From the NCBI RefSeq assembly GCF_988243305.1, contig NZ_OZ547136.1: DNA of 64,000 nucleotides. One strand, 5' to 3'. Of this stretch, positions 22,419 to 22,505 are shown one piece after another. Below the pieces are notes generated by a model, which did not search any database, was not told where the DNA came from, and saw only the letters and a list, made by a program, of their open reading frames with translations. Every line of letters begins with the position of its first letter. Position 1 is the first letter of the stretch. The position numbers and the translations under genes were made by a program.

Positions 22419-22505
22419 TGTATATAGCGCGGCGATTTTTTTGATACCGATTTGCATTTCATTTGATACCGCTGAAAAACGCCGATACGCAACTTATTTG
22501 ATACT
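22419..22505. repeat. prophage right-end terminal region with three putative transposase-binding repeats
   Basis: TGTATATAGCGCGG... then TTTGATACCG at ~22440 and ~22462 and TTTGATACT at ~22497; mirrored by GGTATCAAA repeats at the other end. Confidence 0.6.

What the first reader, a model, noticed from the sequence alone, without database searches (positions are those of the whole stretch)
22419..22505. Prophage termini: TGTA ends with triple TTTGATAC repeats; target duplication ambiguous
Read from the outside in, the two ends are TGTATATAGCGCGGCGATTTTTTTGATACCG... (22419 onward, plus strand) and TGTAACCAGGTGAATCATTTGATACC... (61496 downward, minus strand). Each carries three TTTGATAC(C/T) repeats, consistent with Mu-family transposase binding sites. 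The host flanks share only TACA at the junctions; a clean 5-bp duplication as in Mu is not obvious. If the ends are exactly TG...CA, the flanks rejoin in frame as AAC CTA CAA CAG GCG (N-L-Q-Q-A) with no duplication.
Basis: seen in the sequence. Interest (0 to 1): 0.45.

Follow-up and report, generated by a model that had tools for sequence, protein, structure and literature searches.

The report
Mu-like prophage ends, 4-bp duplication
These are the two ends of an ordinary Sp18-type Mu-like transposable prophage inserted in the E. coli dcyD gene; the puzzle over the missing 5-bp duplication disappears once the left boundary is moved 4 bases inward, because this phage group makes a 4-bp (here TGTA) rather than a 5-bp target duplication.

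Summary
The motif occurs 7 times in the window against 1.8 expected, and six copies lie within 180 bp of the ends, all pointing inward.

The left boundary is off by 4 bp. An uninterrupted dcyD reads ...CGCCTGT-TGTA-GGTTAACC... with one TGTA. Eleven independent insertions of this phage type, Sakai Sp18 among them, all share the ends 5'-TATAGCGCGG... (window 22423) and ...CCTGGTTACA-3' (window 61496). Each is flanked by an exact 4-bp direct repeat, never 5 bp.

The prophage is therefore 22423-61496 (39,074 bp). TGTA at 22419-22422 and 61497-61500 is the target-site duplication. The mom-side terminus is TA, not CA.

With these boundaries the first TTTGATACC starts at nucleotide 18 from both termini. 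The same method recovers 5-bp duplications and TG...CA ends for genuine Mu prophages.

The transposase is a distant MuA homologue: 22% identical to MuA, 44% to the SuMu transposase and 98% to the transposase of a Mu-like phage in GenBank record LC727881. That record already annotates the same 4-bp "duplication due to insertion of Mu".

This is a known kind of element, and the finding is resolved and ordinary. The only mildly notable point is the 4-bp, TA-ended variation on Mu transposition.

The parts
22136..22422 (-). 3' (C-terminal) part of the interrupted dcyD gene, including the left TSD copy
   Evidence: The ORF translation ends ...[11 protein letters not shown]...HPHV. It matches intact dcyD in 5,375 E. 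coli genomes.
22419..22422 (.). Left copy of the 4-bp target-site duplication TGTA (host DNA, not the phage end)
   Evidence: The empty site has a single TGTA. Homology to other copies of the phage begins at 22423.
22423..61496 (-). Sp18-type Mu-like transposable prophage, 39,074 bp. Its Mu map runs right to left in the window: the c/ner/A/B genes are at the right, com/mom at the left.
   Evidence: Conserved termini TATAGCG... and ...GGTTACA in 11 independent insertions. Gene content.
22423..22505 (+). mom-side end (attR equivalent): terminus 5'-TA, with three transposase-site cores TTTGATAC(C/T) at 22440-22448, 22462-22470 and 22497-22505 (nt 18, 40 and 75 from the terminus)
   Evidence: One search finds an extended 23-nt repeat at 22447-22469 and 22482-22504. 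Cores and positions are the same in 10 insertions; one copy (L007) has T for C at the ninth base of the second core.
61324..61496 (-). c-side end (attL equivalent): terminus ...CA-3' on the + strand, with three cores at 61471-61479, 61376-61384 and 61324-61332 (nt 18, 113 and 165 from the terminus)
   Evidence: Core positions are retained in diverged variants.
61497..61500 (.). Right copy of the 4-bp target-site duplication TGTA
61497..62200 (-). 5' (N-terminal) part of the interrupted dcyD gene
   Evidence: The ORF carries MPLHNLTRF...PKVVNL and then runs into the phage. It matches DcyD translated from L001. 287 + 704 nt = 987 + 4.
58143..60233 (-). Transposase (A), 696 aa, a distant MuA homologue
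   Evidence: Pfam Mu-transpos_C at 1.5e-17 and HTH_Tnp_Mu_1 at 6.9e-6. 22% identity to MuA end to end, E = 5e-11. 98.1% to the copy in LC727881, 43.6% to SuMu and about 30% to Pseudomonas phages annotated with transposase A, such as H70, JBD5 and MP38.
57128..58069 (-). MuB-like AAA+ target-capture ATPase
   Evidence: Pfam Phage-MuB_C at 7.8e-25 and AAA_22 at 4.4e-18.
60235..60483 (-). Ner-like small DNA-binding protein
   Evidence: Pfam HTH_35 at 2.5e-19; position corresponds to Mu ner.
60522..61235 (+). Candidate immunity repressor. This is inferred from position and divergent orientation only; the start codon is uncertain.
   Evidence: ORF. No Pfam hit. The gene in the corresponding position is annotated 'transcriptional regulator' in L014.
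22551..23487 (-). mom (DNA modification) with the overlapping com gene, at the end opposite the transposase
   Evidence: Pfam Mom at 1.6e-77 and Zn_ribbon_Com at 1.3e-12.

Best explanation
The region holds the two termini of an Sp18-type Mu-like transposable prophage (window 22423-61496) that transposed into dcyD.

Each end carries three inward-pointing copies of a site with the core (A/T)TTTGATAC(C/T). The first copy starts at nucleotide 18 from each terminus. These are most likely the binding sites of the phage's MuA-family DDE transposase (58143-60233).

By analogy with Mu, the inferred mechanism is as follows. The transposase pairs the two ends in a transpososome. With the MuB-like ATPase (57128-58069) it captures target DNA. 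It then joins the 3'-OH ends to target phosphates.

Here those phosphates are staggered by 4 bp, not 5. Repair or replication of the gaps left TGTA on both sides (22419-22422 and 61497-61500).

Shown directly: the exact boundaries, the 4-bp duplication, the conservation and position of the repeats, and the homology of the proteins.

Inferred: that the transposase binds these repeats, and the chemistry of cleavage and joining.
For: - Empty dcyD site...CAATCGCCTGT TGTA GGTTAACC... with one TGTA.
- BLAST of the left end against 5,426 E. coli genomes finds 282 copies in 231 genomes. In all 40 rows listed, homology starts at query base 5 (= window 22423) or, by chance extension, up to 4 bases earlier, and never later.
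- Homology at the right end runs to 61496.
- Ten insertions lie at different loci; those whose disrupted gene is annotated are in dcyD, ypdB, bcsA, a transaldolase gene, a fimbrial usher gene, sgrR, meaB and sorM (Sakai Sp18). All have TATAGCG...GGTTA(C/T)A abutted by a direct repeat of exactly 4 bp; k = 5 never matches.
- An eleventh insertion, in GenBank LC727881, has GATG. Its depositors annotate it as 'duplication due to insertion of Mu', with the phage region starting TATAGCG and ending GGTTACA.
- A second empty site (ypdB) matches at 100% with a single ACTG.
- Positive control: genuine Mu prophages in three genomes give 5-bp repeats and TG...CA ends by the same procedure.
- With the revised ends, the first core lies at nt 18 from both termini.
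- The cores persist at 18/113/165 in a variant whose surrounding sequence is 38% identical to the window.
- The motif is enriched, 7 against 1.77 expected.
- Transposase and MuB homology.
- Literature: Sp18 is packaged and not circularised, like Mu (PMC2669165). Sp18 is credited with six putative transposase binding sites (PMC2628397).
Against: - No biochemical evidence was available here that the transposase binds the TTTGATAC sites or cuts at these exact nucleotides.
- The TA terminus departs from the CA dinucleotide regarded as the rule for Mu-like phages (PMC8705779). An unusual processing step therefore cannot be excluded.
- phmmer of the transposase against PDB sequences did not retrieve MuA, only retroviral integrase cores, so the homology to MuA is remote.
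- The prophage's present ability to transpose was not tested.
Confidence: 0.95

Rival explanations
1. One reading: the phage ends are the canonical TG...CA at 22419 and 61496, and the insertion made no target duplication.
For: Both ends read TGTA from the outside in. Deleting 22419-61496 restores dcyD exactly.
Against: The four bases 22419-22422 differ in every other insertion of the same phage, whereas TATAGCG is constant. Each insertion has its own 4-bp repeat. Under this reading the first binding-site core sits at nt 22 on one end and nt 18 on the other, instead of 18 and 18. DDE transposition without a duplication would be unprecedented for this family.
Confidence: 0.02
2. A standard Mu-type 5-bp duplication (TGTAG) followed by a point mutation in the left copy (TGTAT), with the phage end at 22424 (ATAGCG...).
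For: TGTAT and TGTAG differ at one base. 5 bp is the textbook value for Mu.
Against: The T at 22423 is present in all 11 independent insertions, while the fifth base on the other side varies freely. No insertion shows a 5-bp match. This reading would require the same mutation in 11 independent events.
Confidence: 0.02
3. Site-specific integration at a short TGTA core by a recombinase, rather than transposition.
For: The prophage encodes a serine recombinase (26917-27489).
Against: That recombinase is a Gin-type invertase next to tail-fibre genes. The duplicated tetranucleotide differs at every locus: TGTA, CAGT, GTTG, GAAT, CTCG, AGAC, CTAA, TGTT, TGAC, TTTA, GATG. Copies lie at many unrelated loci, with up to 4 per genome. 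A MuA/MuB gene pair is present.
Confidence: 0.01

Closest known systems
Prophage Sp18 of E. coli O157:H7 Sakai (Mu-like)
   Same: The mom-side 130 nt differ at one base. The c-side first ~170 nt are identical, including all six cores at the same positions. Termini are the same, and there is a 4-bp duplication (TTTA in sorM).
   Different: The insertion site is sorM rather than dcyD. Length is 38,755 against 39,074 bp. The sequence diverges inward of c-side nt ~172. The RefSeq feature for Sp18 (5040971..5079729) is offset by 1 and 5 bp from the conserved ends.
Mu_JNE082796, a Mu-like phage inserted in Stx2c phage LC727881 (E. coli CC119)
   Same: The transposase is 98.1% identical. Termini are the same. 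The depositors annotate a 4-bp 'duplication due to insertion of Mu'.
   Different: It is inserted in another prophage. The mom-side spacers between sites carry several substitutions.
Bacteriophage Mu (Muvirus mu)
   Same: Gene order is c, ner, A, B ... invertase, com, mom. There are three end sites per end, closely spaced at the mom end and with the first site far from the other two at the c end. Insertion sites are random, with a short target duplication. It uses a MuA/MuB-type machinery.
   Different: The transposases are only 22% identical. Mu makes 5-bp duplications and has TG...CA ends (control), against 4 bp and TG...TA here. The end-site consensus is unrelated.
Haemophilus phage SuMu and Pseudomonas transposable phages (H70, JBD5, MP38 and relatives; D3112-like by my own assignment)
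   Same: They carry the closest transposases among deposited phage genomes, at 43.6% and about 30% identity.
   Different: The hosts differ and there is no end-sequence similarity. The deposited SuMu ends include host DNA, so its termini could not be compared. Their duplication length was not tested here.
Leptospira TA-TA transposable prophages (PMC8705779)
   Same: They have non-canonical TA termini on a transposable prophage. Two E. coli variants here (L012, L014) are TA at both ends.
   Different: Those have B3/Tn552-type transposases and 6-bp duplications. Here the transposase is of the Mu type and the duplication is 4 bp.

Membership tests
Mu-like transposable phages (broad sense) | A DDE transposase of the MuA family next to a MuB-type AAA+ ATPase near one genome end | tested here: met
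   Pfam Mu-transpos_C, HTH_Tnp_Mu_1, Phage-MuB_C and AAA_22. Full-length alignment to MuA at 22% identity, E = 5e-11.
Mu-like transposable phages (broad sense) | Repeated transposase-site motifs in inverted orientation at both ends | tested here: met
   3 + 3 TTTGATAC(C/T) cores, all pointing inward. Positions are conserved across variants. Binding itself was not tested.
Mu-like transposable phages (broad sense) | Copies at many unrelated chromosomal sites, each flanked by a short target-site duplication | tested here: met
   282 copies in 231 genomes, up to 4 per genome. Eleven sites were examined, each with its own 4-bp repeat. Two empty sites were checked.
Mu-like transposable phages (broad sense) | [quoted passage not shown] | not testable with these tools
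   Literature only: Sp18 DNA is packaged and not circularised (PMC2669165).
Muvirus (Mu sensu stricto) | A 5-bp target-site duplication | tested here: not met
   4 bp in 11 of 11 insertions. Mu controls give 5 bp.
Muvirus (Mu sensu stricto) | 5'-TG...CA-3' termini | tested here: not met
   The c side is TG. The mom side ends ...CTATA-3', i.e. TA. Two variants are TA at both ends.
Muvirus (Mu sensu stricto) | Close similarity of transposase and end sequences to Mu | tested here: not met
   22% protein identity. There is no end-sequence similarity beyond the first 4 bases of the c side. MuA was not retrieved from the PDB by phmmer.
Sp18-type Mu-like prophages of E. coli | Termini TATAGCGCGG... 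and ...CCTGGTTACA, near-identical end regions, and a 4-bp duplication | tested here: met
   The mom-side 130 nt differ from Sakai Sp18 at one base. The first ~170 nt of the c side are identical to Sp18, and then the sequences diverge. The duplication is 4 bp. The transposase is 98.1% identical to the LC727881 copy.

The most novel reading that the evidence does not exclude
The Sp18 group may be a natural MuA-family system whose transpososome joins the phage ends to target phosphates 4 bp apart instead of 5, and which works with a 3'-TA terminus (TA at both ends in some variants). This property appears only as a feature line in GenBank records. It has apparently not been analysed in the literature, which states 5 or 6 bp and TG-CA as the rule for transposable phages.
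Probability: 0.4. Interest if true: 0.35.

Novelty: new member of a known kind. Interest (0 to 1): 0.18.

Why it matters
For this window it settles the annotation. The prophage is 22423-61496, dcyD is split with a TGTA duplication, and nothing anomalous remains at the junctions.

More generally, pipelines that delimit Mu-like prophages by looking for TG...CA ends and a 5-bp repeat will misplace the boundaries of Sp18-type phages, which occur in about 4% of complete E. coli genomes. The Sakai RefSeq feature is offset in just this way.

The 4-bp spacing and the TA terminus could serve as a natural comparator to the Mu transpososome, for asking what sets the target stagger and how strict the terminal CA requirement is. 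That is of modest, specialist interest.

Tried and rejected
- Aligning the ends to phage SuMu, the closest transposase in the phage collection. The deposited SuMu record starts and ends in host or IS DNA, so it says nothing about termini.
- Aligning the ends to Mu. There is no meaningful similarity beyond TGTA at the c side.
- Looking for the same dcyD insertion in 5,426 complete E. coli genomes. None was found, so the source strain was not identified.
- phmmer of the transposase against PDB sequences. Only retroviral integrase cores were returned, not MuA. Homology to MuA had to be shown by pairwise BLASTP and Pfam.
- Literature searches for a stated duplication length for Sp18-type phages. 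Nothing was found. Morgan et al. 2002 (J Mol Biol 317:337), which reportedly analysed the Sp18 ends, is not held. The CC119 paper does not discuss the duplication in its main text.
- Terminator and promoter scans of both end regions. Nothing was flagged, so the two conserved hairpins remain unexplained.
- Considered and rejected: a 5-bp duplication with a mutation, no duplication at all, and site-specific integration (see the rival explanations).

Full report
**Observation.** TTTGATAC occurs seven times in the window against 1.77 expected from dinucleotide-preserving shuffles; none of 100 shuffles reaches seven. Three copies lie on the + strand at 22440, 22462 and 22497. Three lie on the - strand at 61472, 61377 and 61325. 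One stray copy at 41282 is within chance expectation. The six terminal copies all point into the element.

**Empty site.** The result was a full-length, ungapped match of equal length in 5,375 genomes, annotated dcyD. An intact allele reads ...TTCTTTCGCAATCGCCTGTTGTAGGTTAACCACTTTCGG.... The occupied site matches the empty site from the left through ...CCTGTTGTA and from the right back to TGTAGGTT.... TGTA is therefore present once in the empty site and twice in the lysogen. This alone allows any duplication from 0 to 4 bp, depending on where the phage ends are placed. It excludes an exact 5-bp duplication.

**Where the phage ends are.** BLAST of 22419-22720 against the E. coli genomes found 282 copies in 231 genomes, up to four per genome. 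Most alignments begin at query base 5, which is window 22423, and none of the 40 listed begins later. BLAST of 61200-61496 found a similar set of copies (283 places in 232 genomes) with alignments running to the last base.

I retrieved both junctions for copies at different loci, where annotated:
- ypdB
- bcsA
- a transaldolase gene
- a fimbrial usher gene
- sgrR
- meaB
- two further loci whose disrupted gene is not annotated in the stretch fetched
- sorM, which is Sp18 of O157 Sakai

In all of them the element begins TATAGCGCGGCGATTTTTTTGATACC and ends CCTGGTTACA; two variants end CCTGGTTATA. In all of them the bases abutting these ends form a direct repeat of exactly 4 bp: TGTA, CAGT, GTTG, GAAT, CTCG, AGAC, CTAA, TGTT, TGAC, TTTA. 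A 5-bp repeat never fits. The ypdB empty site, reconstructed with a single ACTG, matches intact ypdB at 100% identity; the best rows are ungapped 300/300 matches, and 3,196 records match at ≥99% identity.

As a control, the same procedure on genuine Mu prophages in E. coli W, APEC E19057 and MB06231 returns TG...CA ends and 5-bp repeats (GCCGC, TCCAG, TCCAT).

An eleventh copy sits inside an Stx2c phage (GenBank LC727881). It is annotated by its depositors with two 4-bp repeat_region features, 'duplication due to insertion of Mu_JNE082796' (GATG), and with a Mu-like region that starts TATAGCG and ends GGTTACA. These are exactly the boundaries derived here.

**Result.** The prophage is 22423-61496 (39,074 bp). 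TGTA at 22419-22422 and 61497-61500 is the target-site duplication. In Mu orientation the termini are 5'-TG...TA-3', and 5'-TA...TA-3' in two variants.

This is independent, internal support for the revision.

**The repeats.** Measured from the termini, the cores lie at nt 18, 40 and 75 on the mom side and at 18, 113 and 165 on the c side. From my own knowledge of Mu, this resembles the Mu arrangement: three closely spaced sites at attR, and at attL a first site separated by a long spacer from the other two.

On the mom side, the second and third sites extend to a 23-nt imperfect repeat, CCGAT..GCA....ATTTGATAC.

Across ten copies the mom-side cores keep the same sequence and positions, apart from a C-to-T change at the ninth base of the second core in L007. 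On the c side, the cores persist at 113 and 165 even in L016, where the surrounding 84 positions are only 38% identical to the window. All 16 core positions there are identical.

This is the signature of constrained protein-binding sites. Published work already credits Sp18 with six putative transposase binding sites (PMC2628397, citing Morgan et al. 2002). Binding itself is inferred, not shown.

**The machinery.**
- 58143-60233 (-) encodes a 696-aa protein with the Pfam Mu-transpos_C and Mu DNA-binding domains. It aligns end to end with MuA at 22% identity.
- This protein is 98.1% identical to the LC727881 copy. It is 43.6% identical to the SuMu transposase and about 30% identical to the transposases of Pseudomonas phages such as H70, JBD5 and MP38.
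- phmmer against PDB sequences found only retroviral integrase cores.
- A MuB-type ATPase, a Ner-like protein and a divergently oriented candidate repressor sit beside it.
- com and mom lie at the opposite end.
- Sp18 has been shown to be packaged without circularisation, like Mu (PMC2669165).

The most likely mechanism is Mu-type transpososome assembly on the six sites, followed by strand transfer to target phosphates 4 bp apart.

**Comparison with what is known.** The element works like Mu and belongs to the broad class of Mu-like transposable phages. It fails three defining features of Mu proper: the 5-bp duplication, the TG...CA ends, and close sequence similarity. It is a member of the Sp18 group.

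A 2021 review-type statement holds that 5- or 6-bp duplications and TG-CA ends characterise all Mu- and B3-like phages described, and presents TA-TA ends in Leptospira as new (PMC8705779). Against that background, the 4-bp/TA feature of the Sp18 group is a small departure. I could not find it discussed in any searchable paper. It is nevertheless already recorded in GenBank feature annotation, and the original analysis of the Sp18 ends (Morgan et al. 2002) could not be read.

**Verdict.** The finding is real, and it resolves into an ordinary insertion of a known prophage type. No complete genome in the collection carries this particular dcyD insertion, so it is a new member of a known kind. Interest is low. 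The residual point of interest is the 4-bp stagger and TA terminus as a natural variant of Mu transposition.

Noticed in passing
window 24777-26831 (-): A 684-aa ORF between the invertase and com/mom carries a sialate O-acetylesterase-type SASA domain plus DUF6645. It looks like a cargo or receptor-modifying esterase on a Mu-like prophage, in the way Stx phages carry NanS-p-type esterases (that comparison is from my own knowledge).
   Followed up: partly
window 26917-29414: A Gin-type serine invertase (26917-27489, -) lies next to oppositely oriented tail-fibre and tail-fibre-assembly genes (27980-28501 +, 28533-29414 -). This is probably an invertible host-range segment, as reported for Sp18. 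The inverted repeats were not mapped.
   Followed up: partly
window 22474-22486 / 22508-22520: A 13-nt inverted repeat, 92% complementary with a 21-nt loop, encloses the third mom-side TTTGATAC core just downstream of mom. It was not flagged as a terminator by the scan. Its function is unknown; a mom terminator or an accessory-protein site are possibilities.
   Followed up: partly
window 61406-61417 / 61434-61445: A 12-nt inverted repeat (GACATCACCTGT / ACAGGTGATTTC) lies in the long spacer between the first and second c-side sites. The first 88 nt from the c terminus, which contain the outer arm (61434-61445), are nearly invariant in all ten copies compared; the inner arm (61406-61417) lies at the start of the variable region. 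AGGTGA(A)AT-like words recur three times in the c end. An accessory-factor site or a repressor-gene terminator are possibilities.
   Followed up: partly
L012, L014, L016 (c ends of related prophages): Two variants have TATAACC... at the c terminus, so they are TA at both ends. L016 has an almost completely different sequence from nt 89 inward, probably a different immunity region, while keeping the site cores at nt 113 and 165.
   Followed up: partly
NC_002695.2 5040970-5079729 (L017, L018): The RefSeq 'prophage Sp18' feature (5040971..5079729) is offset from the conserved termini (5040970..5079724). It drops the first phage base and includes 5 host bases, one copy of the TTTA duplication among them.
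   Followed up: yes
L002 (NZ_CP069093.1, ypdB): This is a ~21.5-kb deletion derivative of the same prophage type. Both ends are intact and there is a 4-bp duplication, but several structural genes are truncated or fused.
   Followed up: partly
window 22482-22488 and about 61427-61435: Additional GATAC half-motifs in the same inward orientation occur at nt 62 (mom side, CCGATACGC) and nt 66 (c side, TAAGATACTG). Both are conserved in the copies compared. They may be weak or half sites.
   Followed up: no
window 20704-22121 and 62305-63162: The flanking host genes are the cystine ABC transporter genes next to dcyD: an ATPase at 20704-21456, the permease tcyL at 21453-22121, and a periplasmic binding protein at 62305-63162. 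The prophage therefore splits the dcyD-tcy cluster.
   Followed up: partly
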